Of a stretch of DNA of 22,565 bases, positions 184 to 16,954 are shown one piece after another. The stretch is from Oculatellaceae cyanobacterium bins.114 (GTDB lineage: Bacteria; Cyanobacteriota; Cyanobacteriia; Elainellales; Elainellaceae). The stretch's first letter is position 1; each line of letters begins with the position of its first letter. The DNA is taken from positions 1 through 22,565 of the forward strand of contig JANRJA010000053.1 in NCBI GenBank assembly GCA_033764315.1, read 5' to 3'. The position numbers were made by a program, and so were the translations under genes. The notes under the pieces are model-generated. The model was not told the DNA's origin, did no database searches, and saw only the letters and a program-made list of their open reading frames with translations.

Positions 184-726
184 GTGAAATACAACCCTGA
201 TAAACATCACAGGCGATCGATTCGGTTAAATGGATATGATTACACATTGCCTGGTGCCTATTTCATCACCCTTTGTGTGTATCAACGAGAATGTTTGTTT
301 GGAGAAATTGTAAACGGTAAAATGCAATTGAATGAATTGGGTCAGATTGTTACAGATGCGTATTTATGGTTAGAAACGCAATATCCCTACGTTAATTTAG
401 ATGCGTGGGTTGTCATGCCCAATCATTTGCATGGAATTGTAGTGTTGACCGATAACCCCCGTAGGGGCGGTTCGCGAACCGCCCCTACAGAAAATCCCAC
501 AAAACGCAAACCTTTAGGACGTTTAATTGGGGCATTTAAGACAGTTTCCACCAAACAAATCAATTTACTTCGAGACAGATCCGGTGTTCCCTTATGGCAA
601 CGCGACTATTACGATCGCATCATCCGTGACGAAGAAGCATTCCACACCATTCGCCAATATATTCAAGACAATCCCCTCCGGTGGGAGCAAGATCAACTCC
701 ATCCTGACAACCCTTCTAATTGGTAA
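184..726 (+). CDS. REP-associated tyrosine transposase (RAYT, Y1/HUH family)
   Basis: N-terminal RRSIRLxGYDY..G.YFITLC, HUH motif in VVMPNHLHGIV, LWQRDYYDRIIR, and catalytic Tyr region RQYIQDNP. Confidence 0.92.
   Translation: MKYNPDKHHRRSIRLNGYDYTLPGAYFITLCVYQRECLFGEIVNGKMQLNELGQIVTDAYLWLETQYPYVNLDAWVVMPNHLHGIVVLTDNPRRGGSRTAPTENPTKRKPLGRLIGAFKTVSTKQINLLRDRSGVPLWQRDYYDRIIRDEEAFHTIRQYIQDNPLRWEQDQLHPDNPSNW
461..488. repeat. Perfect 28-bp GTAG-type REP/SDR palindrome inside the RAYT ORF
   Basis: GTAGGGGCGGTTCGCGAACCGCCCCTAC equals its own reverse complement and starts GTAG / ends CTAC. Confidence 0.9.
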
Positions 727-5649: not shown

Positions 5650-7350
5650 ATGTTGAATGCCTCGTTATTTGAGAAAACATCTGAGCCAGCCAAGATCCGC
5701 ATCTGGTTCATTTTGAGTTTCATCCCGACATTATATTTTGGTGGTTTGGGGCTGTGGAATGCCTTTAGCCGCGACTATATCGTTCAAGATGATGTGCGAC
5801 AGCATGTGTTTTGGATGGAGCGATTTATTGACCCCGGTTTGTTTCCCAATGATTTGATTGCAAACTACTTTCAAGCGGTGGCTCCAGTCGGTTACAAAAC
5901 CTTTTATTACTGGATGTCTCAATTGGGCTTTGACCCCCTATTACTGGCAAAATTCCTACCGTTGCTCCTCGGTTTAATTACGGTTGGATATGCCTTTTGG
6001 GTAGCGTTTGAGTTACTGCCGATTCCGTTATCCGCCTTTATTGGAACCAGCATTTTAACGCAGTCCCTCTGGATCGAAGATGACCTGATTACAGCCACCC
6101 CCAGAGCCTTTTTATATCCGTTTCTATTTGCTTTTTTATATTATTTGCTGAAGCGATCGCTGGTTCCCTGTTTAGTGGCGATCGCCCTCCAAGCCCTGTT
6201 TTATCCTCAATTAGCACTGGTAGAGGCAGGCATTCTCACCGTCCGTCTGGTGAGTTGGAACAACGGCAGATTAACCCCTTCAAGGGATCGGTTTGATTAC
6301 AAAGTGTGGATTTTAGGCATCGGTATTGTCCTGGGGTTGGTCTTAATTTTCTCACGCGATATTGGGGTGTATGGCCCAACGCCTACTCTGGAACAAATGA
6401 AGCAGATGGCAGACTTTCAAGCCAAGGGCAGAGCTAACTTTTTTGATCCCAATCCCTTTGTCTTTTTGATGACGGGGGATAGTGGGCTTTCACCTATTCT
6501 CAACTTGCCTATTGCTTGGATGAGCTGCCTCTTACCATTTCTGCTCAAGCGTCATCCGTTAGCTCGCTTCATCTCCCCCAAGATCCGCATTTTTGTGGAT
6601 ATTTTAATTCCCTCGTTTGCCCTGTTTGTGCTGGCGCATTTGGTGTTGTTAAAGCTCTATATTCCCAGTCGGTATCTGCAACATAGCTGGCGATTTGTCA
6701 TGACGCTGGCCGCTGGAATTGTTGTCACCATGTTGTTAGATACGGCTAGGCGATGGCTTCAAGAATCGGGTTGGCAATCCTTAACGCGATCGCGCAAAAA
6801 TGCTTTAATAGCACTACGATTTTTCCTGATCATCTCCATTTTGATTCCGGCCTATCCACCCTTATTTCTGGGGGGTCAAAATCAAGTTAGAGGCAACTTT
6901 CCAGAAGTATATGAGTTTTTTGCTCAACAGCCCAAAGACATCCTGATTGCCTCACTATCGCTAGAAATCAGTGTTATTCCTACCTTTAGTAAACGCTCAA
7001 TCTTAACAGGCAGAGAATATGCTATTCCTTATCATCTGGGCTACTACAACCAGATTCAACAGCGCACCAAAGACCTGATGCGCGCCCATTACAGCCCTAA
7101 ATTAGCCGATATTAAAAATCTGATTGAGCAATATGATATTGATTTCTTTTTAGTGGATGTCAGCGCGTTTTTACCAAAATATCTCCGCCAAAATTCTTGG
7201 TTGATGCAATATCAACCGGAGGCAGATGAGGCGATCGCCCGTCTGCAACAACCTCGAAAACCGGCCCTGTTAAGACTGATTAAACATTGTTCTGTGTTAG
7301 AAACAGAAGCCTCCGTTGTGCTAGATGCGAGTTGCATTATAGGAATCTAA
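5650..7350 (+). CDS. Polytopic membrane protein, possibly GT-C-fold glycosyltransferase-like
   Basis: About 10 or more hydrophobic segments, acidic QDD in the first loop, soluble C-terminal domain; function is inferred. Confidence 0.55.
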   Translation: MLNASLFEKTSEPAKIRIWFILSFIPTLYFGGLGLWNAFSRDYIVQDDVRQHVFWMERFIDPGLFPNDLIANYFQAVAPVGYKTFYYWMSQLGFDPLLLAKFLPLLLGLITVGYAFWVAFELLPIPLSAFIGTSILTQSLWIEDDLITATPRAFLYPFLFAFLYYLLKRSLVPCLVAIALQALFYPQLALVEAGILTVRLVSWNNGRLTPSRDRFDYKVWILGIGIVLGLVLIFSRDIGVYGPTPTLEQMKQMADFQAKGRANFFDPNPFVFLMTGDSGLSPILNLPIAWMSCLLPFLLKRHPLARFISPKIRIFVDILIPSFALFVLAHLVLLKLYIPSRYLQHSWRFVMTLAAGIVVTMLLDTARRWLQESGWQSLTRSRKNALIALRFFLIISILIPAYPPLFLGGQNQVRGNFPEVYEFFAQQPKDILIASLSLEISVIPTFSKRSILTGREYAIPYHLGYYNQIQQRTKDLMRAHYSPKLADIKNLIEQYDIDFFLVDVSAFLPKYLRQNSWLMQYQPEADEAIARLQQPRKPALLRLIKHCSVLETEASVVLDASCIIGI

Positions 7351-7355
7351 CGTCA

Positions 7356-8261
7356 ATGAAGCTACTCAATCCCCTGCTTGTTTCTGGAGTGATCTTAAAT
7401 ACTGCTTTGCTGCTTGGAACGCCTGTGTCGGTTGGGTTGAGCCAGCCTCCAACACTGGTGGCTCAGGCTCCCACCGGAGAGAGTGAGCTAAATCGTGGGT
7501 TGCAGTTGATTCGTCAGGGTCAGTTGAATGAGGCGATCGCAGCCTTTCGTCAAGCCACGGCACTCAATCCTGGGCTTGCTCCCGCTTACTACAACTTAGG
7601 GTTGGCACTGCGTCAACAAGGGCAACTCCAGGAAGCGGCAACTGCCTTTTACCAGGCGACCCAGGCAGAACCCCGATTTGCCCTCGCCTATGCTAACCTC
7701 GGAGCCGCTCTGTTAGAAGGCAATAACGTTTCTTTGGCAGGCGATTATTTGCAACGGGCGATCGAACTTGATCCTGACTTGGGACTAGCCTATTACAACC
7801 TGGGGTTGGTGCGAAAACAACAGGGCAACTGGCAACAGGCGATCGATGCCTTTCAGCGGGCGATTCAACTTAGCCCCAATGCACCAGAGCCTCCCTATCA
7901 CCTGGGGTTAGTCTATCAGCAACAACGCCAACAAAACCTGGCTCTGCGTGCCTTTCAACAAGCCATTAGCATTAACCCCAACTACGCCGAAGCTCACTAC
8001 AGTGCTGGGTCGGTTATGTTTGAGCAAGACAACCTGGATGCTGCATTAGAAGCGTTTAGGCGATCGGCTCAAGCCAACTCTAACTATCCCAATGCCTATT
8101 ATGGGGCGGGTCTGGTGTTTCTCCGGCAGGGCAAATACGCCGATGCTCAACAGGTGTTGCAATACGCCAGGGATTTGTTCAACGCACAGGGCAATGCTCA
8201 ATGGGCCGCCAGTGCTCAAGACTTGTTACAACGGGCGCAGAGTTCGGTTGCCCCTCGTTAG
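7356..8261 (+). CDS. Exported TPR-repeat protein
   Basis: ATG at 7356 just after the upstream stop; hydrophobic N-terminus; about 7 TPRs of the A(Y/H)YNLG pattern at 34-aa spacing. Confidence 0.9.
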   Translation: MKLLNPLLVSGVILNTALLLGTPVSVGLSQPPTLVAQAPTGESELNRGLQLIRQGQLNEAIAAFRQATALNPGLAPAYYNLGLALRQQGQLQEAATAFYQATQAEPRFALAYANLGAALLEGNNVSLAGDYLQRAIELDPDLGLAYYNLGLVRKQQGNWQQAIDAFQRAIQLSPNAPEPPYHLGLVYQQQRQQNLALRAFQQAISINPNYAEAHYSAGSVMFEQDNLDAALEAFRRSAQANSNYPNAYYGAGLVFLRQGKYADAQQVLQYARDLFNAQGNAQWAASAQDLLQRAQSSVAPR

Positions 8262-8308
8262 CAATCAGCTATAACCAAGGAATATATCCCCTGAACCAAC
8301 ACCACTCT

Positions 8309-8953
8309 ATGTCTCACGTCTTCCTCTCCTATGCTCGTGCCGATGGCAAACCTGCTGCAACTCGTTTGCGGGGTGAATTGGAACGAGTCGGTTTTCAAAT
8401 TTGGCGAGACATCGAAGACATGCAGGGTGGGCAATCCTGGAAAGACCAATTGCGTGAGGCATTGCGAACCGTGCAAGTCGTGGTCGTGTTGCTGACTCCC
8501 GCTGCCGTTGCCTCAAAGTATGTCGAGTGGGAATGGGAAACCGCGCTTACCCTGGACAAACGAGTGATTCCCTTGTTGCTCATGCCCTGTGATGTGCCCA
8601 GTGATTTGAGTCGTTTGCACTATCACAACCTCAGCACCGATCAGGAATATACCCTGGGGTTCGCTGCCCTGATCCGCGATTTGTATTCCCTGACAGCACA
8701 TGTTCCAGGCAAGCCATCTGGATCGGATGCAAGGACTCCATCAGACGAAGAGGGCGATCGCCCTAGTGGGGGTCGTGCTATCTCGATCGGCGGTCACGTC
8801 AGCGGCAGTAATTTAGTGCTTGGTGACGGTAACACAGTTGGTAATAACAATGTGGTGCAGCGAGTGACGCAAACCGGAAAATATAACGTCAATCTGGGAA
8901 CCGCTCAAGGCTTAATTATTGGCGATACAATTCATGACAACGAAGAAGATTGA
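8309..8953 (+). CDS. TIR-domain protein with C-terminal G/N/V/I-rich amyloid-like motifs
   Basis: Start likely ATG 8309 (MSHVFLSYARAD); WRDIEDMQGGQSW, SKYVEWE with putative catalytic Glu, VIPLLL; P/S/D/G linker then low-complexity beta-type tail. Confidence 0.9.
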   Translation: MSHVFLSYARADGKPAATRLRGELERVGFQIWRDIEDMQGGQSWKDQLREALRTVQVVVVLLTPAAVASKYVEWEWETALTLDKRVIPLLLMPCDVPSDLSRLHYHNLSTDQEYTLGFAALIRDLYSLTAHVPGKPSGSDARTPSDEEGDRPSGGRAISIGGHVSGSNLVLGDGNTVGNNNVVQRVTQTGKYNVNLGTAQGLIIGDTIHDNEED

Positions 8954-9066
8954 TCTCTCTCTTGTTAGAGCTATTCTTACCATCTGATCAGACTGAGTAA
9001 GAGGCGATCGCTTCAACCGATTCAATTGTCTGCCAGAATTGAGGAATATCAACGGAGGCTGAGCCA

Positions 9067-9645
9067 ATGGTTACTTCACCCCAACACCCCCTCAGAATGA
9101 CCGTTGAGGAATACCTGGAATGGGAATCTCAGCAAGAGGTTCGTCACGAATATGTTAACGGTGAAGTCTTTGCAGTGATGGGTGGGACGATTCCCCATAA
9201 TGACATTGCGCTCAACCTTTACACGGCGTTGCGCCCTAAAGTGCGATCGCGGAGATGTCGAATCAATGTAGCGGATGTCAAGGTGCAGGTGAATCCTGCT
9301 AGTCCTTACTATTACCCCGATGTGATCATCAGTTGCAACCCACAAGACCTCAATGCTCGTCAGGTGATCCAGCATCCCATCCTGATTGTGGAAGTGCTTT
9401 CTCCTGGCACGGAGGCAAAGGATCGGGGTGAAAAGTTTACCTACTATCAGACAATTCCCAGTTTGCAAGAATACGTGTTGATTGATTCTGAGAAGGTTGC
9501 GGTGGAGTGTTATCGTCGGGGCGAGGGGCGGATGTGGCTCTATTATCCTTACAGCGCAGGAGATGTGATTGCTCTCGGTAGCCTTGAGTTTGAGTGCCCC
9601 ATTGAGTTGCTGTATGAAGGGGTGGTGTTTGAGGAGCCAAGTTAG
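9067..9645 (+). CDS. Uma2 family (PD-(D/E)xK-like) endonuclease
   Basis: MTVEEYLEWE..RHEYVNGEV, YYYPDV, LIVEVLSPGT, LQEYVLID; GGAGG RBS upstream. Confidence 0.93.
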   Translation: MVTSPQHPLRMTVEEYLEWESQQEVRHEYVNGEVFAVMGGTIPHNDIALNLYTALRPKVRSRRCRINVADVKVQVNPASPYYYPDVIISCNPQDLNARQVIQHPILIVEVLSPGTEAKDRGEKFTYYQTIPSLQEYVLIDSEKVAVECYRRGEGRMWLYYPYSAGDVIALGSLEFECPIELLYEGVVFEEPS

Positions 9646-9723
9646 TTGACAGGGCGATCGCCCCATGAGCCATCCTTTACAATGATTGGCAGAGGCAAAA
9701 CGTTTCTCGTGGGAGGCTTGTCT

Positions 9724-10329
9724 ATGATTGCGACCCCTAAACTTCGTCGGTTGACACCACAAGAATATTTTGAGTGGGAAGCCCAGCAAGAGCTACGGTA
9801 TGAGTACTTTGATGGGGAAGTGTTTGCCATGACAGGGGGTTCCCTGCCCCACGGTCGCATTGGCTTGAATGTGAGTTCGTTGCTAAAGTCTCATGTTAGG
9901 GGCAAGGGGTGTATTGTACTCAACTCTGACTGCAAGGTAGGGATTTCTGAAAAAGGACCTTTTACGTATCCGGATGCCAGTGTGAGTTGTGATCAGCGCG
10001 ATCGCACAGCAGAAGACTTTATTCGATTCCCTTGCCTGATTGTCGAAGTGTTGTCTCCTGGCACCGAAGCCTATGACCGGGGTGGAAAATTTGCCCTCTA
10101 CCGTCGTTTGGAAAGTTTGCAAGAATATGTTTTAGTCGGGTCTGAAACGAAGATCGTTGAGGTCTTTCGGCGCAACCAACAGGGGACATGGGTGTTTGTC
10201 CCTTATGGTGAAAGCGATGAGATTGAGTTGACAAGTGTGGGTTTAACGATACCGATGGCGGCAATCTATGAAGATGTGATCCTGGCGCAATCGGAAACCC
10301 AGGAAAGTCCTTTGGCAGAGGAAGGTTGA
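9724..10329 (+). CDS. Uma2 family endonuclease
   Basis: ATG 9724 behind GGAGG; RYEYFDGEVFAM, TYPD, LIVEVLSPGT, LQEYVLV. Confidence 0.93.
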   Translation: MIATPKLRRLTPQEYFEWEAQQELRYEYFDGEVFAMTGGSLPHGRIGLNVSSLLKSHVRGKGCIVLNSDCKVGISEKGPFTYPDASVSCDQRDRTAEDFIRFPCLIVEVLSPGTEAYDRGGKFALYRRLESLQEYVLVGSETKIVEVFRRNQQGTWVFVPYGESDEIELTSVGLTIPMAAIYEDVILAQSETQESPLAEEG

Positions 10330-10342
10330 TCCTGGAAGTGGT

Positions 10343-10406
10343 GGCGATCGCACTTACCCCCAGGTCTGCCACTTCTCGAATCAGTCGCAGATCTGCCATA
10401 CTCACT
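10343..10406. repeat. HIP1-anchored dispersed repeat, copy A
   Basis: GGCGATCGCACTTACCCCCAGGTCTGCCACTTCTC...AGTCGCAGATCTGCCATACTC; 34/35 identical to 11294-11328 and similar to 11968-12033. Confidence 0.85.
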
Positions 10407-10497
10407 GTTTCCGCTCAAGCGATCGCCCCCACGCTTTAACAAATGCACTACAGATGAATTACAACTATTCAATTAGCTAAAACCAGGAGATAGATTT

Positions 10498-10806
10498 GTG
10501 AGTACTCAAATTAGTATCCAAATTGAGAAAACAGAGACAGGCTACTTAGCCTACAGTCCAGAAGTTACAGGTAGTCAAGTGCAAGGTGACTCTTTTGAAA
10601 TTGTTGTTGATGCACTTAAACCAATCATTGGCAGTTTTTTGAAAGCGCAAGAAGGTCGATTCACCAGTACAACAGACAGACCCATCTGGGAAATTGCTCA
10701 GGAAATCACCAGTGATATGACTGAAGAAGAGATTCGGCAACTGCCATCTGATGGCGCAGAACAGCATGATCACTATATCTATGGCATTCCTAAGCGGACA
10801 TTATGA
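10498..10806 (+). CDS. Putative antitoxin (HicB-like N-terminus, C-terminal LPSDGAEQHDHYIYG segment)
   Basis: IEKTETGYLAYSPEV.G..QGDSFE resembles HicB fold; ATGA overlap with downstream PIN gene; AGGAG RBS. Confidence 0.7.
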   Translation: MSTQISIQIEKTETGYLAYSPEVTGSQVQGDSFEIVVDALKPIIGSFLKAQEGRFTSTTDRPIWEIAQEITSDMTEEEIRQLPSDGAEQHDHYIYGIPKRTL

Positions 10807-11213
10807 GAACACTGTTCGCAGATACTTTCTATTGGGTTGCTCTCATCAATCCTGCCGATGATTGGTACAGTCGAGTTCTCAATGTCAGCTCTTCTTTGGG
10901 GCAAATTCAACTGGTCACGACAGATGAAGTATTAACTGAAGTCCTTACCTTTTACTCAGAAGCAGGTTCACGGATGCGACAGCGTACAGTTGCTTTTGTG
11001 GATAATGTTTTGAGTAATACTACTATTCAAGTGATTCAACAGACTCACGATTCCTTCTTGTCTGGCTTGAAACTTTACCGCGATCGCCTTGATAAAGGGT
11101 ATAGTCTCACTGATTGTATATCCATGAATACAATGCAAAACCTGAGTATCACAGAAGTGCTAACCCATGATCAGCACTTCGTTCAAGAAGGGTTCATGAT
11201 TTTATTCAAATAG
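10803..11213 (+). CDS. vapC: PIN-domain VapC-type toxin
   Basis: LFADTFYW, VLTEVL, YSLTDCIS, LTHDQHF acidic PIN motifs; 136 aa. Confidence 0.9.
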   Translation: MRTLFADTFYWVALINPADDWYSRVLNVSSSLGQIQLVTTDEVLTEVLTFYSEAGSRMRQRTVAFVDNVLSNTTIQVIQQTHDSFLSGLKLYRDRLDKGYSLTDCISMNTMQNLSITEVLTHDQHFVQEGFMILFK

Positions 11214-11293
11214 CACATGATCTCAAAATAGAGAATTACTAAATGCCTCAAAAGTAGAACGCGATCGCTCTTTTCTACTTACCACCTCAATAG

Positions 11294-11328
11294 GGCGATC
11301 GCACTTACCTCCAGGTCTGCCACTTCTC
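11294..11328. repeat. HIP1-anchored dispersed repeat, copy B (partial)
   Basis: 34/35 identical to 10343-10377. Confidence 0.85.
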
Positions 11329-11342
11329 AACTAGCATGGAGG

Positions 11343-11909
11343 TTATCTTGCTCCGACTTTTAACCAGCTAAACATCTGCTCTACTGTTAATCTCAAGTCA
11401 ACACCGGGTAAGCAAGGGAGGGGTGCATCTCCGAACAATTCATCAGGTAAGCGATCGGGGCGATAGACTAACACCACTCGCTCATCAGGATCAATCAACC
11501 AACCCATCTTTCCCCCATGACGCAAGCTATGTAAAATCTTGCGCGTCACTTTCATCTGGCTCTGGTCGGGCGATAGAATCTCAATCATCCAGTCGGGTGC
11601 AATGGTGATTCCGGTGCTGGAAATATCGCCATTCTCATCCACAGGAATGTAGGCTTTGCTTAGGACTACTAGATCGGGCACGATCGACTTGCCCCCAACA
11701 GTACACCGCAACTCAGGTAGAGCTTCATAGGCTGAATCGAGTGCATTAATGGCACTGGCAAGACGTAATTGCAGGCGACTATGCTTTCCTCCTGGCATTG
11801 GCTTTTGGATGGCTTCTCCCTGTACAAATTCCCAGGCAGGGGATTCTTCAATATCAGGCAGTCTTAAGAACTGCTCTAGGGTTAAGGGTTGAGATGAGGC
11901 AAGGGTCAT
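11343..11909 (-). CDS. Uma2 family endonuclease
   Basis: LTLEQFL, QKPMPGGKHS, ELRC...SIVPDL, PDWMIEILSPDQ, GWLIDP. Confidence 0.93.
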   Translation of the reverse strand: MTLASSQPLTLEQFLRLPDIEESPAWEFVQGEAIQKPMPGGKHSRLQLRLASAINALDSAYEALPELRCTVGGKSIVPDLVVLSKAYIPVDENGDISSTGITIAPDWMIEILSPDQSQMKVTRKILHSLRHGGKMGWLIDPDERVVLVYRPDRLPDELFGDAPLPCLPGVDLRLTVEQMFSWLKVGAR

Positions 11910-11967
11910 AATGGTGTAAAGTCACACAAACCTCTAATACTCTGGATTTTAACGCTTTTAGAGGGTG

Positions 11968-12033
11968 GGCGATCGCACCCTCACCCTGAGATTTGCGACT
12001 TCTTGAAGCAGTTGCAGATCTTGCATACTCCCT
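11968..12033. repeat. HIP1-anchored dispersed repeat, copy C (diverged)
   Basis: GGCGATCGCAC...AGATTTGCGACTTCTTGAAGCAGTTGCAGATCTTGCATACTC aligns with copy A and contains an imperfect IR. Confidence 0.75.
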
Positions 12034-12034
12034 A

Positions 12035-15000
12035 TCAACGTGAGTGAAATGCTTGATAAAAATCCGGATAGGGCATTGTCTCAGCGCATTTCATCATGAG
12101 TGGATAGAGTTGAGAGAGTTTCTTTGTGCGTAAGTGGCGACGAAGCGATCGTACTATTTGGATCGACACCTGATCACTCATACCGATACTGATATTGTTC
12201 AAAGTCCACACTGCTCTCCAAAAAACATTGTTATCTTGAGTAGTTTCTATTAGTTGAGCTAGTGCCTGAACTATAGTCTCACTGCTTGGATCAATTTTGC
12301 TCAAACTCTTAGCTACGTCATCGATGTTTCCTTGAGCAATTATCAACACTCGTAGCAGTGCCCGGATCGCCGTCTCATTGCCAGGGTCAATTGTATCCAG
12401 GCTCTTGGCTACACTCTTAAGAGTGTATTCATCTTGAGTTGTTTCCAACACTCGTATCAGTGCGTGAATTGCCGTCTCATTACCAACACCGATTTTGCCC
12501 AAGATCTCGGCTGCATCCCTAAGAGTGTGTTTATCTTGAGTCGTTTTTATCAGTTGCACTAGTACTCGAATTGCTGTCTCATTGCCAGGGTCAATTCTGT
12601 ATAAACTCTCGGCTGCATCCCTAAGAGTGTATTTATCTTGAGTCGTTTCCAACACCCGCACCAATGCCCAAATCGCCGTCTCATTACCAGCACCGATTCT
12701 GTCCAAGATCTCGGCTGCTCCCAAAAGAATGTGATCATCTTCAGTGGTTTCTACAAGTTGCATCAGTGCGTGAATTGCCGTCTCATTGCCAGCGCTGATT
12801 CTGCCCAAGATCTCGGCTGCTCCCAAAAGAATGTAATCATCTTCAGTGGTTTCTACAAGTTGCACCAGTGCCTGAATCGCCGTCTCATTACCAGCACCGA
12901 TTATACCCAAGCTCTCGAATGCTTCCCCAAGAATGTGATCATCTTCAGTGGTTTCCAACACCCGTAGCAGTGCCTGAATCGCTGTCTCATTGCTAGGAGC
13001 CATATAACTCAAGATCTCGGCTGCTTCCCGGAGCATGTGATCATCTTCAGTGGTTTCTACAAGTTGCACCAGTGCCCGAATCGCCGTCTCATTGCCAACA
13101 CCGATTTCGCCCAAGCTCTCGAATGCTTTCCCACGAGTGCCTAGATCTTGAGTTGTTTCCAACACCCGTAGCAGTACCCTGATCGCCGTCTCATTACCAG
13201 CACCGATTATACCCAAGGTCTCGACTGCTCTCCAACGCTTTACTAAATCTCTAAATTCCGATCTCTCTTGTTTAGTCATATACTCTGAAAAGATCCCGGA
13301 TAGCATCCGCCGGTTTAATGGCTCTTGAGTTGTTTCCAACACCTGCACCATTGCGCTGATCGCCGTCTCATTACCAGTACCGATTTCGCCCAAGAGCCTG
13401 GCTGCGCTATCATAAGCGATTTCATTTTGAGTGGTTTCCAATACCTGCACTAGTACTCGAATCGCTGTTTCATTGCCAGGATCAATTTCTTCCAAACTCT
13501 CGACTACAATCCTGCGGATATATTGATCTTGAGTAGTTTCCAATACCTGCACTAGTACCTGAATCGCTGTCTTACTACCAGCACCGATTCTGCCCAAGAT
13601 CTTGACCGCGCCCTCAAAGGTGACTATACTTTGAGTGGTTTTCAACACCTGCGCCAGTACTCGAATTGCTCGTCGGGAATCTGTACTGCTGAAGGCGGGA
13701 GCAACAAGATTAATCCAGCTTTGTCTTAACTCATCATCGTAATTCGGTACATAAAAGTTATAAAGATTAAACCAACTTTGTTCTAACCCATCAAAGTCAA
13801 ACGCCCAGTACACCAGTTTATTAACAATCTCATCAGCATGGGTACAATCTCTAAACTCAGCAATCCCTCTGGCTGCCAACAAAAATGCTCGGTCGCTGTA
13901 GAAACCTCCACATCGATCCTTAAATCTCATCATTGACCAAATCAAGGCATCCTTCTCTGACTTGTTCACGTCTTTGCGCCCCAACCACAGCAGAAATACC
14001 TGCTTCCATTGGGGTTCAAAAATGCGATAGGCAATTTTCGCTTCTTTGGCATTACGTGGTTTTGGATTGAGAAAAAAGCGTCCATTGTCGATCGCTAATG
14101 CAGCAAAATATTCTTCAAAAGTCGCGTGATAAAAGGCATATATTGCTTGCATTGGGTCATTTGCATCTACCCCAACTTGGTTCAACCAACCCACTTCTAG
14201 CGCCAGATCCAGAAGAGTTCCCTGTCCTTCTGCTAGAGCTTCGCTCAAAATGCGGCTAACAAATGGATGTCGCAATCGAAAGCGGGTATGGTGTTGATCG
14301 TCCGTATCATCTATTGCTGCGAGAGCAAGCTTCGCTAATGCCTGATTTAATTGTGCTTGCTGTTTGGGGGTAGTTGGAAACTGCTCATGCTTCCACTCAT
14401 AAATGCGATTGACAAACCGTTGATAGAGTTCTGCCTGAGTTTCAGGTAGTTGTCCCTGTTGCAAATACCAGTTAAAGCACAATAGCGTTAACCGCAGCGG
14501 ATTTTTGACCAAATCCCGAATTCGCTCTTTCCCCGACTCCTTTAAAGCCGCACATAATGACTGACCAAGTTCAGCTTTTCTCCGGGGTGCAAACCATTGT
14601 CTGATAAACTGCTCCACTTGATCGGGGTAAGCAAACTCCAGGGTGCGATAGGTGTCAAACTGAGTGAGTGAATTGCGATCGCCATCCCACAAATTCAGCC
14701 GACAAGTCAGCAAAATTTTTGCCTGTTGCAGCCATCCTCCCTCTTGCATTTGGCGTTGAATGTCAGTTAAGGGATTGCCTGAAACCTGCATCTCATCTAA
14801 GCCATCTAGCAGCAGCCAGACTCGACCCTGCTTAAACTGAGCGGCAAAGTTTGCTTTGTCTGCCTGCGAGGGTTCTGCACCTCCCGCCGCTCGAATCACC
14901 CGTTGCAGCCAGCGTTTCTCTAAATAGGTTTCTAACGAGTCGCCCTGCAAATCTGCTAGCGATATCCAAATCACAATTGAGTCTGGAAAGGTTGCCGCTG

Positions 15001-15637
15001 CCCATCGAGCAATTTGTTGCAACAGCGTTGTCTTTCCTGCACCCGGTTCCCCAATAATGGCAACTCGTTTGCCCTGGCTCTTGGGACTCTGCCCCTGCTG
15101 TAAGACCTGCTCCAGAAATTGCTCATGCTCAAATTTCTGAGTGACCTCGACTTCTTCTGCCTCAAATCTCTGGGGCGATCGCTCTTCTAAACCTTCCTGA
15201 TACAATCTCGAACCTTGCTCTGGGGAAACATCCTGCTTCTGGCGCGGTACCTTCTTCCGCTCCACTAGCCCCAACGGTACATACACCTGCTCAACTTGAT
15301 AGGCAATGTCTTCGCCTTTTGTCATCGGGTTGGTCGTTAACTGGAGCCGCTCCTCCAACAGTGTTCGGCTGGTTTGTTGCCAATCAAGTTCGAGTGGTGG
15401 GGATGGCAGTTGCGTTGGCGTAGCCGCTCGGAACGAGCTTCGCAACATATCCCGAATCTCAGTTAACAAGTCAGTGTCTAATCCACTGAGCGTGTCCCCA
15501 ATTGAGACTCCTGTTCCCTCACCCAAGTTGACGTTATATTTGCCATGCTGCTCGACAAACTGAATGATGAGCGATCGCCCATCATTGGTTTTGACCCAGT
15601 TTTGCAGTTCAGCCAACAGTGCGTCGCGGTTCATCAT
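12035..15637 (-). CDS. NLR-like STAND protein: N-terminal amyloid-like motif, NACHT NTPase, HEAT repeats
   Basis: Walker A GEPGAGKTT, Walker B LLLDGLDE, LTCR, NPLRL, F(Y)HATFEEYFAA; C-terminal 34-aa helical repeats. Confidence 0.93.
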   Translation of the reverse strand: MMNRDALLAELQNWVKTNDGRSLIIQFVEQHGKYNVNLGEGTGVSIGDTLSGLDTDLLTEIRDMLRSSFRAATPTQLPSPPLELDWQQTSRTLLEERLQLTTNPMTKGEDIAYQVEQVYVPLGLVERKKVPRQKQDVSPEQGSRLYQEGLEERSPQRFEAEEVEVTQKFEHEQFLEQVLQQGQSPKSQGKRVAIIGEPGAGKTTLLQQIARWAAATFPDSIVIWISLADLQGDSLETYLEKRWLQRVIRAAGGAEPSQADKANFAAQFKQGRVWLLLDGLDEMQVSGNPLTDIQRQMQEGGWLQQAKILLTCRLNLWDGDRNSLTQFDTYRTLEFAYPDQVEQFIRQWFAPRRKAELGQSLCAALKESGKERIRDLVKNPLRLTLLCFNWYLQQGQLPETQAELYQRFVNRIYEWKHEQFPTTPKQQAQLNQALAKLALAAIDDTDDQHHTRFRLRHPFVSRILSEALAEGQGTLLDLALEVGWLNQVGVDANDPMQAIYAFYHATFEEYFAALAIDNGRFFLNPKPRNAKEAKIAYRIFEPQWKQVFLLWLGRKDVNKSEKDALIWSMMRFKDRCGGFYSDRAFLLAARGIAEFRDCTHADEIVNKLVYWAFDFDGLEQSWFNLYNFYVPNYDDELRQSWINLVAPAFSSTDSRRAIRVLAQVLKTTQSIVTFEGAVKILGRIGAGSKTAIQVLVQVLETTQDQYIRRIVVESLEEIDPGNETAIRVLVQVLETTQNEIAYDSAARLLGEIGTGNETAISAMVQVLETTQEPLNRRMLSGIFSEYMTKQERSEFRDLVKRWRAVETLGIIGAGNETAIRVLLRVLETTQDLGTRGKAFESLGEIGVGNETAIRALVQLVETTEDDHMLREAAEILSYMAPSNETAIQALLRVLETTEDDHILGEAFESLGIIGAGNETAIQALVQLVETTEDDYILLGAAEILGRISAGNETAIHALMQLVETTEDDHILLGAAEILDRIGAGNETAIWALVRVLETTQDKYTLRDAAESLYRIDPGNETAIRVLVQLIKTTQDKHTLRDAAEILGKIGVGNETAIHALIRVLETTQDEYTLKSVAKSLDTIDPGNETAIRALLRVLIIAQGNIDDVAKSLSKIDPSSETIVQALAQLIETTQDNNVFWRAVWTLNNISIGMSDQVSIQIVRSLRRHLRTKKLSQLYPLMMKCAETMPYPDFYQAFHSR
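12200..13670 (-). repeat. Intragenic 102-bp (34-aa) tandem HEAT-repeat array, about 13-14 units
   Basis: Marker (C/T)GTCTCATT or a close variant recurs at 12371, 12473, 12575, 12677, 12779, 12881, 12983, 13085, 13187, then 13364, 13466, 13568. Confidence 0.92.
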
Positions 15638-15782
15638 GGGAGTGACTCAAACGCCCAAACTCTTTAGTGCAAGGTAACTCTTTACTTAAGATAAGGCATC
15701 AAGTCTTTAGGAAAACGTTAGAGGCGATCGCCCCATAACTCATACATTACAATTAAGATAACTCCCAGCCATTTTGTTTTCC

Positions 15783-16112
15783 ATGACTCGTCAAGAACTT
15801 GAGCAGCAACTTCTCAGTCTCTCGCTATCTGACAAAGCTGAGATTGTTCAAAGTTTGACTAAAACCCTGAGTATGGGCGACAAGGGAATCACCAAAAAGC
15901 CTGGTGTTTGCGGCGGGGAAGCCTGTATTGCCGGAACCCGCATTGCCGTTTGGCTCTTGGTCGAAGCGCAGCAGCTTGGCATTCGGGAAGCTCAACTCTT
16001 GCAGGACTATCCTCATATTACGGCTGCCGATCTGGTTAATGCCCGGGCATATGCTGAAGCCCATCCAGAGGAGATTGCTGCTGCCATTCTTGCTAACAAC
16101 GAAGTTGCCTAG
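15783..16112 (+). CDS. DUF433-type antitoxin, copy 1
   Basis: ITKKPGVCGGEACIAGTRIAVW..LLQDYPHITAADL. Confidence 0.88.
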   Translation: MTRQELEQQLLSLSLSDKAEIVQSLTKTLSMGDKGITKKPGVCGGEACIAGTRIAVWLLVEAQQLGIREAQLLQDYPHITAADLVNARAYAEAHPEEIAAAILANNEVA

Positions 16113-16115
16113 CGG

Positions 16116-16256
16116 ATGGCACGGCTGTATGTAGATGAGCAGTTTCCACGGGAAGTGAGCGATCGCCCATCATTTGACAAATGGTTACGCTCCTACGTTG
16201 GCAGCAGAACAAACGAATTCCAGTTAAAGTCTAAGAGAGAGGCAATCTCAATGTAA
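16116..16256 (+). pseudogene. Truncated DUF5615 (PIN-like) toxin remnant
   Basis: Translates MARLYVDEQFPREV, matching MAKLYADEQFPRLV of 16616-16954; similarity is lost at HIP1 16159-16166 and the frame stops after 46 codons. Confidence 0.8.
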
Positions 16257-16270
16257 AGGCAATCGTAGAC

Positions 16271-16612
16271 ATGACCCTCAAAGAGTTAGAAACCCAACTA
16301 CTGGCTTTAAACCCAGTAGAAAAAGCGGAAATCATTCAGGTTCTGACCCAGAGCTTGGGTAATGGCTCACGAGGAATTACAAAAACCCCTGGAGTGATGG
16401 GAGGAGATGCCTGTATTGCAGACACTCGCCTTCCAGTTTGGCTGTTTGTCAGTCTACGTCACCAAGGAGCAACGGATGCTGAGCTGTTCAATGCCTATCC
16501 CCAGCTTACGGCGGCTGATTTGGTGAACGTCTGGGCATATGCAGAAGCTTATCCAGACGAAATTGAGACGGCTTTGCAAGAACAGGAAGATGCAATACGG
16601 GAAGACCTTTAG
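16271..16612 (+). CDS. DUF433-type antitoxin, copy 2
   Basis: ITKTPGVMGGDACIADTRLPVW..YPQLTAADL; paralogue of 15783-16112. Confidence 0.88.
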   Translation: MTLKELETQLLALNPVEKAEIIQVLTQSLGNGSRGITKTPGVMGGDACIADTRLPVWLFVSLRHQGATDAELFNAYPQLTAADLVNVWAYAEAYPDEIETALQEQEDAIREDL

Positions 16613-16615
16613 AGC

Positions 16616-16954
16616 ATGGCAAAGTTATATGCAGACGAGCAGTTTCCTCGCCTTGTTGTAAAGTGTTTGCGTAGCTTTGGTCATGATGTTTTAACCGTTC
16701 AGGAGTCAGGAAACGCTGGATTTTCTGACCCACACGTTTTAGAATTTGCGATCGCTAATGAGCGTATTGTTCTGACTTTAAACCGACGTGATTTTAAGCG
16801 ATTACATCAGTTGCAGCCAAATCATGCTGGGATTATTGTTTGTACTGAAGACAGAGACAGTGAAAGATTTGCAACTCGTATCCATGAGGCGATTGTACTT
16901 GAGGAATCCCTACAAGGTAAGCTGATTCGAGTTGTGCGCCCCAATTTACAGTAG
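16616..16954 (+). CDS. DUF5615 family PIN-like toxin
   Basis: LYADEQFP, GHDVLTV, SDPHVL, RIVLTLNRRDF, HAGII; 3 bp after the DUF433 gene. Confidence 0.88.
   Translation: MAKLYADEQFPRLVVKCLRSFGHDVLTVQESGNAGFSDPHVLEFAIANERIVLTLNRRDFKRLHQLQPNHAGIIVCTEDRDSERFATRIHEAIVLEESLQGKLIRVVRPNLQ

What the first reader, a model, noticed from the sequence alone, without database searches (positions are those of the whole stretch)
8309..15637. Candidate amyloid-coupled NLR-TIR system: TIR C-terminus and NACHT N-terminus share one RHIM/BASS-like motif
Seen: the TIR protein ends in QRVTQTGKYNVNLGTAQGLIIGDT (core nt 8876-8926) and the NACHT-HEAT protein carries QFVEQHGKYNVNLGEGTGVSIGDT near its start (core nt 15494-15544, minus strand): 16/24 identical, with an exact GKYNVNLG block despite synonymous codon differences. 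The NACHT has no recognisable N-terminal enzymatic effector, and the TIR keeps the putative catalytic Glu (SKYVEWE). Established: fungal NWD2/HET-S, mammalian RHIM and bacterial BASS systems place a matching amyloid motif N-terminal on the NLR and C-terminal on the effector, and TIR domains gain NADase activity on clustering. Inference: HEAT sensing, NACHT oligomerisation, templated polymerisation of the TIR tail, then NAD+ cleavage and abortive infection. Unusual: the partners are not adjacent but convergent, with five Uma2/TA genes between them. The motif may match an already catalogued effector-associated domain (EAD10, from memory, unverified).
Basis: partly seen in the sequence, partly recalled or inferred. 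Interest (0 to 1): 0.93.

Follow-up and report, generated by a model that had tools for sequence, protein, structure and literature searches.

The report
EAD10-coupled NACHT sensor and TIR effector
A cyanobacterial immune-type sensor protein and a separate NAD-cleaving TIR enzyme carry the same short docking motif, a catalogued adaptor called EAD10, so this is a further example of a known way of wiring sensors to cell-death effectors; whether the motif works as an amyloid is untested.

Summary
The TIR protein (8309-8953, +) ends in, and the NACHT-HEAT protein (12035-15637, -) begins with, the same roughly 25-residue motif (BLASTP 17/31 identical, E 6e-7). EAD10 is a published "effector-associated domain", proposed to couple effectors to STAND, NLR or VMAP cores by homotypic contact (Kaur 2020). 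So this is a new member of a known kind.

New evidence supports coupling. In Nodosilinea, the orthologous TIR is either split (TIR-EAD10 plus EAD10-X, adjacent) or fused directly (TIR-X, no EAD10) at the same syntenic site. A Nostoc plasmid holds a caspase ending in the bare EAD10 core beside three EAD10-STAND genes.

The amyloid reading is neither shown nor excluded. Effectors carry only the Gly/Asn/Gln-rich core, which AlphaFold2 does not fold in monomers. There is no match to RHIM or HET-s models, no fibril data, and the BASS profiles could not be inspected.

That these two proteins are each other's partner is plausible but weakly specific: the NACHT ranks 2nd of 105 N-terminal cores. The TIR tail also carries a second, "A-type" core that is found on paralogous NLRs.

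The parts
8309..8953 (+). Gene for a 214-aa TIR effector: a TIR domain followed by a disordered C-terminal tail
   Evidence: Translation. The start at 8309 is supported by alignment A1. Pfam TIR_2 scores E 1.1e-25. The AlphaFold2 model has residues 1-131 at pLDDT 84-91 in most blocks and residues 132-214 below 50.
8318..8671 (+). TIR domain, with the conserved Glu (residue 75 of the 214-aa protein) in the S-x-Y-V-E-W-E helix
   Evidence: Pfam TIR_2 covers residues 40-157 of the 250-aa ORF. E73 and E75 are invariant in 21 sequences. The second Glu aligns with the Glu of the SARM1 TIR 'H-K-E' position. PADLOC TIR models hit down to E 1.6e-14.
8765..8845 (+). 'A-type' core in the TIR tail. Motif: [DN]-R-x-[IV]-[SA]-[IV]-G-G-x(7)-[IV]-x-T-G-D-G-N
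   Evidence: My own HMM of 34 segments scores 42.2 bits here, and this is the only copy in the window. The same motif sits at the core position of the N-terminal EAD10-like scaffold of 9 of 9 paralogous NACHT proteins.
8858..8941 (+). EAD10 core ('B-type') at the C-terminus of the TIR protein
   Evidence: Pfam EAD10 scores 23.9 bits in the whole protein and 25.9 bits as an isolated tail, on model positions 37-64 only. My core HMM scores 51.0 bits.
12035..15637 (-). Gene for a 1200-aa STAND/NLR-type sensor: EAD10, linker, NACHT, helical region, HEAT repeats, NCC-H
   Evidence: Translation. Pfam hits: NACHT 2.4e-14, HEAT_2 5.5e-47, NCC-H 1.2e-7, EAD10 5.6e-8. Orthologues are 61-66% identical.
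15455..15616 (-). Divergent EAD10 at the N-terminus of the NACHT protein (residues 8-61). The core is at nt 15494-15544
   Evidence: Pfam EAD10 scores 33.1 and 36.8 bits on model positions 24-73. The AlphaFold2 model has flanking helices at pLDDT about 73-76 and core residues 37-44 below 50, with no strands.
14588..15067 (-). NACHT NTPase domain with Walker A and Walker B motifs
   Evidence: Pfam NACHT covers residues 191-350. The P-loop (G-x4-G-K-T) is at about residues 196-203 and the acidic Walker B stretch at about 275-282, both visible.
12188..13720 (-). HEAT-repeat sensor region (approximate limits). It includes a near-perfect array of 34-aa units
   Evidence: Pfam HEAT_2 matches in 6 stretches. 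Tandem Repeats Finder reports 12344-13228, period 102 nt, 8.7 copies, 75% matches.
9067..11909 (.). Intervening genes, probably not part of the system: Uma2 (9067-9645 +), Uma2 (9646-10329 +), 102-aa ORF (10498-10806 +) with PIN (10803-11213 +), Uma2 (11343-11909 -)
   Evidence: Pfam Uma2 scores 3.3e-36, 5.7e-40 and 1.4e-28, and PIN scores 2.2e-4, below its cut-off. All three Uma2 proteins hit the PADLOC candidate family PDC-S03 at 7e-28, 1e-26 and 4e-12. None of these genes lies next to the TIR or NACHT orthologues in other genomes.

Best explanation
This is an EAD10-coupled sensor and effector pair of the kind described by Kaur et al. The NACHT-HEAT protein is a STAND/NLR-type sensor. Its N-terminus is not an enzyme but a divergent EAD10 adaptor. 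The TIR protein is a stand-alone NAD-cleaving effector. Its tail is disordered on its own and ends in the bare EAD10 core, preceded by a second, A-type core.

Proposed mechanism:
1. The HEAT array binds an invader-derived ligand (inferred).
2. The NACHT domain oligomerises with NTP and brings several N-terminal EAD10 cores together (inferred from the family).
3. These clustered cores capture the matching cores of TIR tails by homotypic, probably beta-strand, contacts. The sharing of the motif is shown. The coupling role of EAD10 is supported by split and fused orthologues. The contact itself was not tested.
4. The crowded TIR domains become active NADases, and the cell stops growing or dies (inferred from what is known of TIR enzymes).

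Whether step 3 is a stoichiometric contact or a self-propagating amyloid-like polymer is open.
For: 1. Both proteins match Pfam EAD10. Their cores are 16/25 identical.

2. A profile of the core (11 sequences) found 198 proteins at E<=1e-3 in 1.84 billion.
- 145 of the 149 new proteins among the 150 listed match Pfam EAD10.
- Of 157 cores in those 149 proteins, 135 are N-terminal. They sit on NACHT, NB-ARC, nSTAND1, VMAP, WD40, GUN4, FGE-sulfatase, CHASE2 and CHAT proteins.
- Nine cores are at the extreme C-terminus, mostly of CHAT or caspase proteins. Thirteen lie elsewhere.

3. Split and fused forms exist.
- In 4 of the 5 loci whose TIR orthologue carries the core (L001, L003, L004, L006), the next gene lies about 150-200 bp downstream on the same strand. 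It encodes EAD10 (42-50 bits) plus a helical domain X. The fifth locus, L002, ends about 320 bp after the TIR.
- In L009 and L010, at the same syntenic site as L003 and L004, one 393 or 387-aa protein joins TIR directly to X with no EAD10. Its residues 1-125 are 59% identical to the L004 TIR, and residues 102-393 are 48% identical to L004 X.

4. Nostoc sp. UHCC 0926 plasmid pn3 carries a 53.9%-identical NACHT-HEAT-NCC-H orthologue with a full EAD10 (89 bits). It is convergent with a row of EAD10 genes. About 16 kb away, a caspase ends in the bare core. It is followed 489 bp downstream by an EAD10 protein of 877 aa and an EAD10-NACHT protein, and preceded by an EAD10-NB-ARC-TPR protein.

5. The tail of the window's TIR is closest to caspase and CHAT tails, not to the tails of its own TIR orthologues. 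The tail therefore moves as a module.

6. Among 105 N-terminal cores, the window's NACHT ranks 2nd as a match to the TIR tail, with the highest identity (16/25). Its own orthologue ranks 1st.

7. The TIR retains the Glu aligned with the SARM1 active-site Glu.

8. Kaur 2020 states that EAD10 is one of the EADs that recruit effectors, and that copies lie in the same operon or elsewhere in the genome.
Against: - No binding or activity was tested. The complex prediction could not be run.
- Specificity is weak. Canonical EAD10 cores from unrelated proteins score 70-78 against the TIR tail, and the window's NACHT scores 78. Another EAD10 protein elsewhere in the genome could be the real partner.
- The genes are convergent and separated by five unrelated genes. 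In Dyrka's set, 91.3% of pairs were collinear and most were within 10 bp of each other.
- The conserved neighbour of this TIR family is EAD10-X, not an NLR. No NLR lies within 10 kb in L003 or L004, and no trace of X is left in the window.
- The TIR tail reaches the Pfam cut-off only when scanned alone (23.9 against 25.9 bits).
- In the Nostoc plasmid, no effector with a C-terminal core lies within 15 kb of the NACHT-HEAT orthologue.
Confidence: 0.6

Rival explanations
1. The EAD10 core would be a bacterial amyloid signalling motif. Clustered NACHT N-termini would adopt a cross-beta fold that templates the TIR tails into a self-propagating polymer, as in NWD2/HET-S, RHIM or Bab/Agp. It is a special case of the best explanation.
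For: - Only about 25 residues are shared. Effector tails match EAD10 model positions of roughly 32-65 and lack the flanking helices.
- The core is rich in Gly (19.1%, 3.6-fold), Asn (2.4-fold), Gln (1.7-fold) and Ile (2.1-fold). It has no Pro in 174 cores and has alternating Asn and hydrophobic residues. This count is partly circular, because six positions were fixed by the search pattern.
- Dyrka describes BASS motifs as about 25 aa long and enriched in Q, N, G, V and I.
- AlphaFold2 leaves the TIR tail, and the core within the NACHT N-terminus, unfolded in monomers, although the core is the most conserved stretch.
- Some proteins carry 2-4 cores in tandem. P0087 has four.
- Effector tails carry two core-type motifs (A and B), while NLRs carry one. 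This recalls the two repeats of HET-s.
[quoted passage not shown] In Kaur's archetype of that architecture, the same position holds EAD10.
- BASS motifs on TIR2 effectors are reported.
Against: - There are no fibril, prion or seeding data for EAD10 in any paper I read.
- No RHIM, HET-s, sigma or PP Pfam model matched at E<=10.
- The A and B motifs are not detectably similar. Shuffle z-scores were about 0 for most of the 14 tails scored before the script stopped, and hhalign gave P 0.06 (local) and 0.3 (global).
- On sensors, the core lies behind a conserved helical leader inside a 77-position domain that Kaur calls alpha+beta. Typical amyloid motifs sit at the extreme terminus.
- Lys is invariant in the core and enriched overall, whereas BASS motifs are depleted in Lys.
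- The key BASS11 residues named in the preprint (a Gln, then Asp-Asn seven and eight residues on) do not fit the EAD10 core.
Confidence: 0.3
2. The two genes are not each other's partner. Each belongs to a genome-wide EAD10 network, and they lie near one another only because defence genes cluster. The TIR would have lost its usual EAD10-X neighbour, and the NACHT would recruit other effectors encoded elsewhere.
For: - The conserved neighbour of the TIR family is EAD10-X in 4 of 4 assessable loci.
- The orientation is convergent, with five unrelated genes in between.
- Core matching is only weakly specific.
- Kaur 2020 reports many dispersed copies of one EAD per genome.
- The Nostoc plasmid holds at least 10 EAD10 genes within about 40 kb.
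Against: - The window's TIR tail has been replaced by the subtype that best matches this NACHT family. The NACHT and its orthologue rank 1st and 2nd of 105.
- These are the only two EAD10 copies in 22.5 kb.
- The 3.1-kb gap is within the 5-kb limit used to define BASS pairs.
Confidence: 0.25
3. The likeness is a chance match of two low-complexity Gly/Asn-rich stretches.
For: The motif is short and compositionally biased.
Against: - BLASTP with composition adjustment gives E 6e-7.
- Both stretches hit one curated Pfam model.
- The motif is conserved in orthologues of both proteins.
- A profile of it retrieves 198 proteins, of which 145 of the 149 tested are EAD10.
Confidence: 0.01

Closest known systems
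EAD10 (Pfam PF19954) and the 'EAD principle' of Kaur, Burroughs, Iyer and Aravind (eLife 2020, PMC7159879; eLife 2021, PMC8195603)
   Same: The motif is the same. One copy sits at the N-terminus of a core STAND/NLR component and another on an enzymatic effector encoded nearby. The predicted role is homotypic coupling. The host is a filamentous cyanobacterium. The effector classes are TIR, caspase and CHAT.
   Different: - The effector carries only the central core of the 77-position model, at its extreme C-terminus, preceded by a second A-type core.
- The pair is convergent and interrupted by five genes.
- No vWA-MoxR ternary core lies in the window.
- The sensor's EAD10 is divergent (33 bits, against 80-120 bits for canonical copies).
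BASS motifs in Bell/NLR gene pairs (Dyrka et al. 2020, bioRxiv 10.1101/2020.01.06.895854)
   Same: A motif of about 25 residues, rich in G, N and Q, is shared by an effector C-terminus and an NLR N-terminus within 5 kb. The hosts are multicellular cyanobacteria. TIR2 is listed as an alternative effector.
   Different: - The effector here is TIR, not Bell.
- The genes are not collinear or adjacent.
- On the NLR, the motif lies behind a helical leader.
- I could not compare with BASS1-10 profiles, so identity with one of them is neither shown nor excluded.
Bab/Agp and BASS11 (Ibarlosa et al. 2024, bioRxiv 10.1101/2024.11.07.622273)
   Same: A sensor with an N-terminal short motif and a small effector with the same motif at its C-terminus. 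The experimentally shown outcome is abortive infection. The sensor architecture, TPR-GreA/B-C-PIN, is one that carries EAD10 in other species.
   Different: - The sensor there is not a STAND NTPase.
- The effector is a membrane-targeting Bell-like domain.
- The conserved BASS11 residues named in the text do not fit the EAD10 core.
- The amyloid state is proven there and untested here.
Fungal NWD2/HET-S and mammalian RHIM (recalled; also summarised in the papers above)
   Same: The logic is the same: NLR oligomerisation activates a separate effector through a short shared terminal motif. The effector side carries two motif units and the NLR side carries one.
   Different: - There is no sequence relationship. 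The Pfam HET-s and RHIM models do not match.
- The two units of the TIR tail are not detectably similar to each other.
All-in-one bacterial NLRs (bNACHT, Avs) and TIR defence systems such as Thoeris or SAVED-TIR
   Same: A NACHT STAND sensor with a repeat-type C-terminal sensor region. The TIR domain is similar to defence TIRs (PADLOC SAVED-TIR 1.6e-14, ThsB 3.7e-8).
   Different: The effector is not fused to the sensor. No PADLOC or NCBIfam model reaches a family-level score for either protein.

Membership tests
EAD10 (Pfam PF19954) | Matches the curated profile at or above the gathering score of 24.1 bits | tested here: met
   The NACHT N-terminus scores 33.1 bits in the whole protein and 36.8 bits in isolation. 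The TIR tail is borderline: 23.9 bits in the whole protein and 25.9 bits as an isolated 72 aa.
EAD10 (Pfam PF19954) | Terminal position, with one copy on a core component and a further copy on an effector encoded nearby or elsewhere in the genome (Kaur 2020, section read) | tested here: met
   One copy is N-terminal on the NACHT protein and one is C-terminal on the TIR protein, 3.1 kb apart. The two genes are not in one operon, because they are convergent.
EAD10 (Pfam PF19954) | A complete small alpha+beta domain of 77 model positions | tested here: inconclusive
   The NACHT copy covers model positions 24-73. AlphaFold2 gives it flanking helices but no confident strand. The TIR copy covers positions 37-64 only, which is the core without helices. 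Other C-terminal effector copies are the same.
Bacterial amyloid signalling sequences (BASS; Dyrka 2020) | A short motif of about 25 aa shared by an effector C-terminus and the N-terminus of an NLR encoded within 5 kb | tested here: met
   The gap is 3.1 kb. The orientation is convergent, unlike 91.3% of the published pairs.
Bacterial amyloid signalling sequences (BASS; Dyrka 2020) | Match to one of the BASS1-11 profiles | not testable with these tools
   The profiles and logos are in figures and supplements that I could not see. Only text passages were read.
Bacterial amyloid signalling sequences (BASS; Dyrka 2020) | Composition biased to G, N, Q, V and I, depleted in P, L and K, with beta propensity | tested here: inconclusive
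   G, N, Q and I are enriched, P is absent and L is depleted. K is enriched and V is not (partly circular). AlphaFold2 monomer models show no strands.
Bacterial amyloid signalling sequences (BASS; Dyrka 2020) | Forms fibrils, behaves as a prion-forming domain, and the NLR side seeds the effector side | not testable with these tools
   This needs bench work. No such data for EAD10 were found in the papers read.
RHIM, HET-s, sigma and PP amyloid motifs (Pfam models) | Match to the family profile | tested here: not met
   A scan of both isolated tails against Pfam-A at E<=10 returned EAD10. The only other hits were two weak unrelated ones, PKD_4 and Diacid_rec. HMMER's filters may hide very weak matches.
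TIR-domain NADase | TIR fold, with the conserved Glu of the active-site helix | tested here: met
   Pfam TIR_2 scores 1.1e-25. The AlphaFold2 model of residues 1-131 is confident. A profile search hits the SARM1 TIR at 5.6e-8, with the Glu aligned. The catalytic role of that SARM1 Glu is recalled. Enzyme activity was not tested.
NACHT-type STAND NTPase (NLR-like) | NACHT domain with Walker A and B motifs, followed by a repeat-type sensor region | tested here: met
   Pfam NACHT scores 2.4e-14 on residues 191-350, HEAT_2 scores 5.5e-47, and NCC-H lies at the C-terminus. The P-loop and the acidic Walker B stretch are visible.

The most novel reading that the evidence does not exclude
The conserved 19-25-residue core of EAD10 is a new family of bacterial amyloid-type (or otherwise cooperative beta-stacking) signalling motifs, missed because it was catalogued as a globular adaptor domain. 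Effector tails such as this TIR's carry two different core types in tandem (A and B). One effector can therefore be triggered by two classes of paralogous NLR, each of which displays only one core type. This would make a many-to-many immune wiring network in multicellular cyanobacteria.
Probability: 0.3. Interest if true: 0.65.

Novelty: new member of a known kind. Interest (0 to 1): 0.4.

Why it matters
The finding as written is largely explained. The motif is EAD10, and pairing an EAD on a STAND sensor with the same EAD on a TIR, caspase or CHAT effector is the published EAD principle.

What is worth keeping is the link between two bodies of work that do not cite each other on this point: EADs as Death-domain-like adaptors, and BASS motifs as amyloid switches. 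The effector-side copies of EAD10 are reduced to a short Gly/Asn/Gln-rich core in a disordered tail. That is exactly the anatomy of an amyloid signalling motif.

The natural split and fused TIR-X orthologues give a clean, testable case that EAD10 stands in for a covalent link. If the core proves to be amyloid-forming, a widespread Pfam family would be reassigned to prion-like signalling. The A+B double tail would then be a simple model for how one effector serves several sensors.

Tried and rejected
1. Complex prediction of NACHT residues 1-70 with TIR residues 145-214 was never run. The request was not sent on. The machine gave no usable answer. There is no result of any kind.

2. I tested whether the A and B halves of the tail are pseudo-repeats.
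- Local alignment against 300 shuffles gave z-scores of about 0 for most of the 14 tails scored. The highest were 2.07-2.24, in three tails. One further tail was mis-split and gave no score, and the script then stopped with an error.
- hhalign gave P 0.06 over 4 columns (local) and 0.3 (global).
- Sequence similarity is therefore not supported. The only link between A and B is that both occupy the core position of the EAD10 scaffold.

3. No Pfam amyloid family matched.

4. I looked for a remnant of the X gene in the window. tblastn hit only the two EAD10 cores (E 0.002 and 0.022), plus noise.

5. tblastn of the TIR against plasmids found 5 records, none covering the tail.

6. The ESM Atlas search on the tail gave no feature hits. 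Structure hits had TM<=0.35. The top one was a cyanobacterial caspase cluster in which 12% of members carry EAD10.

7. No PADLOC or NCBIfam model named either protein at family level.

It was replaced by an 11-sequence alignment built from references only.

9. Identity of EAD10 with BASS11 could not be tested, because no tool gave me the Bab or Agp sequence. The residues named in the preprint argue against identity.

10. The closed collections (metagenome and viral contigs) and paper supplements were not consulted. As a result, the neighbourhoods of the metagenomic NLR and caspase relatives (P0073-P0085) remain unknown.

Full report
**The observation**

The window encodes a TIR protein on the + strand. 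The ORF runs 8201-8953, and alignment A1 places the start of 20 of the 21 aligned sequences, the window's included, at 8309. On the - strand it encodes a 1200-aa NACHT-HEAT protein at 12035-15637. BLASTP aligns 31 residues with 17 identities, E 6e-7 for the single comparison.

The DNA under the motif is only 41/72 identical, and the exact 8-residue block differs at four synonymous sites. Selection is therefore on the peptide. A loose pattern for the block occurs nowhere else in the six frames of the window.

**What the motif is**

A Pfam scan of 21 ORFs of the window gave the following for the two proteins:
- TIR protein: TIR_2 (1.1e-25).
- Large protein: NACHT (2.4e-14), HEAT_2 (5.5e-47) and NCC-H.
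- Both proteins: EAD10 (PF19954). The NACHT N-terminus scores 33.1 bits on residues 8-61. The TIR C-terminus scores 23.9 bits, a hair under the 24.1-bit cut-off.

Scanned as isolated pieces, the two stretches score 36.8 and 25.9 bits. No RHIM, HET-s, sigma or PP model appears even at E<=10.

A profile of the core, built only from references to the window and to fetched loci (11 sequences), found 198 proteins at E<=1e-3 among 1.84 billion representatives. Of the 149 new proteins listed, 145 match Pfam EAD10. So the motif and the Pfam family are the same thing.

**What is published**

- Kaur et al. 2020 (PMC7159879; passages, the EAD section read in full) define the effector-associated domains. 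They are small non-enzymatic modules found once on a core component and again on effectors, either in the same operon or elsewhere in the genome. They are proposed to couple the two by homotypic contact. EAD10 is listed as one of three EADs with mixed alpha+beta character and among those that "primarily recruit other effectors".
- Kaur et al. 2021 (PMC8195603; passages) add an EAD10-TPR-GreA/B-C-PIN system.
- Dyrka et al. 2020 (bioRxiv; passages and sections 7 and 9) define BASS1-10. [quoted passage not shown] Some are specific to cyanobacteria, and TIR2 is an alternative effector.
- Ibarlosa et al. 2024 (bioRxiv; abstract, sections 4 and 12, passages) show that BASS11 is an amyloid switch in the E. 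coli Bab/Agp abortive-infection system. [quoted passage not shown]

In the searchable library, "effector-associated domain" and "amyloid" co-occur only in Kaur 2021, where "amyloid" is only in the reference list. "EAD10" with "TIR" returns only the three papers above, apart from unrelated papers on horse facial coding (compare). I therefore found no printed statement that EAD10 is an amyloid motif. The BASS logos and tables are in figures and supplements that I could not see, so identity with a BASS family stays unchecked.

**Anatomy of EAD10 on sensors and on effectors**

Among the 149 representatives, my core HMM finds 157 cores:
- 135 lie near the N-terminus. Almost all of these are full 77-position matches of 80-120 bits, on NACHT (+HEAT, +NCC-H), NB-ARC (+TPR), nSTAND1, VMAP, WD40, GUN4, FGE-sulfatase, CHASE2 and CHAT proteins.
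- 9 lie at the extreme C-terminus, mostly of CHAT or caspase proteins. They match only model positions of about 32-65 at 20-27 bits.
- 13 lie elsewhere.

The canonical sensor-side domain is a helical leader, then the core, then a helix (alignment A4). The core has the pattern Q-x-G-K-[YN]-x-[VIT]-x-[LIV]-x(2)-[GA]-x(4)-I-G-D (invariant columns of A2; position table). The effector side has the core alone.

AlphaFold2 models the TIR domain confidently, but leaves residues 132-214 below pLDDT 50 with no secondary structure. For the NACHT N-terminus it gives helices at pLDDT of about 73-76. The core, which is the most conserved stretch, is the least confident part, and no strands are predicted.

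**Relatives of the TIR**

A homologue search returned 78 proteins at E<=1e-3 among 942 candidates. TIR orthologues from Nodosilinea, Leptolyngbya and related cyanobacteria (52-65% identical) carry a two-part tail. The first part is an "A-type" motif, [DN]-R-x-[IV]-[SA]-[IV]-G-G-x(7)-[IV]-x-T-G-D-G-N. The second is the EAD10 core.

The window's TIR and one 80%-identical relative have a different subtype of the core. This subtype is nearly the same as the tails of four caspase proteins found in the same search. The tail is therefore a module that moves between effector classes.

**Genomic context and a split/fused pair**

The single scan of species-representative genomes with the TIR alignment matched 55 stretches. 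Eleven were confirmed, giving 11 loci.
- Five loci (L001, L002, L003, L004, L006) have a TIR with the core.
- In four of these five, the next gene lies about 150-200 bp downstream on the same strand. It encodes a protein of roughly 335-342 aa made of an N-terminal EAD10 (42-50 bits) and an unassigned helical domain that I call X.
- The fifth locus (L002) ends about 320 bp after the TIR.
- In L009 and L010, two other Nodosilinea genomes, the flanking genes are the same as in L004: pentapeptide protein, GNAT, then the TIR gene, pseudouridine synthase, DnaJ. There, one protein of 393 or 387 aa joins TIR directly to X, and no EAD10 is present. Its residues 1-125 are 59% identical to the L004 TIR, and residues 102-393 are 48% identical to L004 X.

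A covalent link in one species is thus replaced by two EAD10 copies in its relatives. This is independent evidence that EAD10 couples the two halves.

Of the other four loci:
- Two (L005, L008) have TIRs whose tails carry the A-type motif but no EAD10 core.
- In one (L007) the TIR is cut by the end of the locus.
- One (L011, a Chloroflexota genome) has an NB-ARC protein just upstream of a TIR with a different tail.

The window has no trace of X.

**Relatives of the NACHT protein**

Searching with residues 1-110 gave 6 proteins including the query. Four orthologues (P0082 from Baaleninema simplex, and three metagenomic ones) keep the helical leader and the core.

tblastn of residues 1-620 against plasmids found 55 records. 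The best is on Nostoc sp. UHCC 0926 plasmid pn3. It is a NACHT-HEAT-NCC-H protein, 53.9% identical, with a full EAD10 (89 bits), lying in a defence island beside DISARM genes. Its neighbours on the opposite strand, in order, are:
- a 142-aa gene with no assigned family,
- an EAD10-only gene,
- EAD10-WD40,
- a short EAD10 gene,
- a Roc-COR protein,
- MoxR,
- a VMAP protein with N-terminal EAD10.

About 16 kb away on the same plasmid, a 309-aa caspase ends in the bare core (22.3 bits, model positions 36-60). It is followed 489 bp downstream by an EAD10 protein of 877 aa and then an EAD10-NACHT protein. On the other strand, one gene removed, lies an EAD10-NB-ARC-TPR protein. Effectors with a C-terminal core do therefore sit next to STAND proteins with N-terminal EAD10 elsewhere.

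A second plasmid orthologue (Nostoc sp. C057) has a different N-terminal motif, shared with the N-termini of its two upstream neighbours. N-terminal modules are evidently swapped among orthologous sensors.

**A second core type**

One hit of the NACHT search, P0086, lacks the EAD10 core and instead has the A-type motif behind an EAD10-like leader. A search with its first 100 residues returned 9 NACHT proteins.
- All 9 carry the A-type motif (18-43 bits with my HMM). P0086 itself was in the HMM's training set; the other eight were not.
- None carries the B-type core.
- Pfam reads these N-termini as weak to clear EAD10: 22.9, 19.1 and 34.4 bits for the three scanned.

The A-type motif therefore occupies the core position of the EAD10 scaffold. 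Sensors carry A or B, while TIR and caspase tails carry A followed by B. Direct similarity of A to B is not detectable. In the window only the TIR carries A.

**Are the two window proteins each other's partner?**

Unrelated canonical cores score 70-78. The match is the best available but only weakly specific.

The genes are convergent, 3.1 kb apart and separated by three Uma2 genes and a PIN pair. None of these accompanies the orthologues elsewhere. Partnership is thus plausible (two EAD10 copies within 5 kb, the tail subtype fits this NACHT family) but not shown.

**Mechanism**

I consider the following most likely. Ligand sensing by the HEAT array leads to NTP-dependent oligomerisation of the NACHT domain. 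This clusters the N-terminal EAD10 cores, which capture TIR tails through the shared core. The proximity activates the TIR NADase.
- Shown: the shared motif; its family; the split/fused evidence for coupling; the retained TIR Glu, which aligns with the Glu of SARM1 (its catalytic role is recalled).
- Inferred: every dynamic step.

Points that favour a cooperative or amyloid-like contact:
- The effector side is reduced to a core in a disordered tail.
- The composition is biased: G 19.1%, N 10.7%, Q 10.8%, I 14.8%, and no Pro in 174 cores. Six positions were fixed by my search pattern, so this is partly circular.
- Some proteins carry tandem arrays of cores. P0087 has four.
- BASS11 stands in the same place on a related sensor architecture.

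Points against:
- There are no experimental data.
- No known amyloid profile matches.
- The sensors have a helical leader in front of the core.
- A Lys is invariant in the core.

I put the amyloid version at about 0.3.

**Verdict**

The finding is a correct observation of a catalogued adaptor in its expected setting, so it is a new member of a known kind. The residual interest lies in the testable idea that the EAD10 core is an amyloid-type switch, in the double A+B tail, and in the natural split/fused pair.

Noticed in passing
L003:8966-10787, L004:10001-11822 (split) against L009:10001-11179, L010:10001-11161 (fused): At one syntenic site in four Nodosilinea genomes, the TIR is either fused directly to a helical domain X of about 260 aa, or split into TIR-EAD10 plus EAD10-X. 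X has no Pfam family. Its only hit is a sub-threshold, nearly full-length match to the Phycobilisome protein model (20.8 bits, cut-off 22.2). An X-like stretch also appears in P0116, next to an EAD10.
   Followed up: partly
window 8765-8845 (TIR tail, first half): This is a second conserved motif (A-type) upstream of the EAD10 core. Some TIRs end right after it (P0032-P0037, L005, L008). Nine NACHT proteins carry it at the core position of an EAD10-like N-terminus. Pfam does not cover it on the TIR.
   Followed up: partly
window 12344-13228: The HEAT region of the NACHT protein contains 8.7 tandem units of 102 nt (34 aa) that are 75% identical at the DNA level. This looks like the highly similar internal repeats of rapidly diversifying NLR sensors.
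   Followed up: no
window 9067-9645, 9646-10329, 11343-11909: Three Uma2-family (putative restriction endonuclease-like) genes lie between the two EAD10 genes. All three hit the PADLOC candidate defence family PDC-S03 (7e-28, 1e-26, 4e-12). The stretch therefore looks like a small defence island.
   Followed up: no
window 10498-11213 and 15774-16954: These look like toxin-antitoxin pairs. The first is a 102-aa ORF with no family, overlapping a PIN-like gene by 4 nt. The second is two DUF433 genes followed by a DUF5615 (PIN-like) gene just upstream of the NACHT gene.
   Followed up: no
P0087 (212 aa): This protein has four tandem EAD10 cores separated by linkers of about 20-25 aa (109 bits). 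P0089 and P0090 carry two full EAD10 domains. P0218 is a single 558-aa chain of caspase, A+B tail and TIR.
   Followed up: no
L012 and L014 (Nostoc sp. UHCC 0926 plasmid pn3, about 165-207 kb): This is a conjugative plasmid island with at least 10 EAD10-bearing genes in about 40 kb. They include NACHT-HEAT, NB-ARC-TPR, NACHT, WD40, VMAP, CHAT and caspase proteins. The island lies next to a vWA/Roc-COR-MoxR-VMAP system and DISARM genes.
   Followed up: partly
L013:10825-17871 (Nostoc sp. C057 plasmid p057_H): Three adjacent genes share a different Gly-rich N-terminal motif in place of EAD10. They are NACHT-NCAB1, a 248-aa protein, and the NACHT-HEAT orthologue of the window's sensor. This may be another adaptor family.
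   Followed up: no
window 5650-7350 and 1017-2081: Two sizeable ORFs (566 aa and 354 aa) have no Pfam or NCBIfam match. From its sequence, the 566-aa ORF looks like a polytopic membrane protein. The 566-aa ORF and a TPR protein (7287-8261) lie directly upstream of the TIR on the same strand. That arrangement is not conserved in the TIR's relatives.
   Followed up: no
window 184-726: This ORF has a weak, sub-threshold match to the C-terminal half of the IS200-like Y1 transposase model (18.7 bits, cut-off 23).
   Followed up: no
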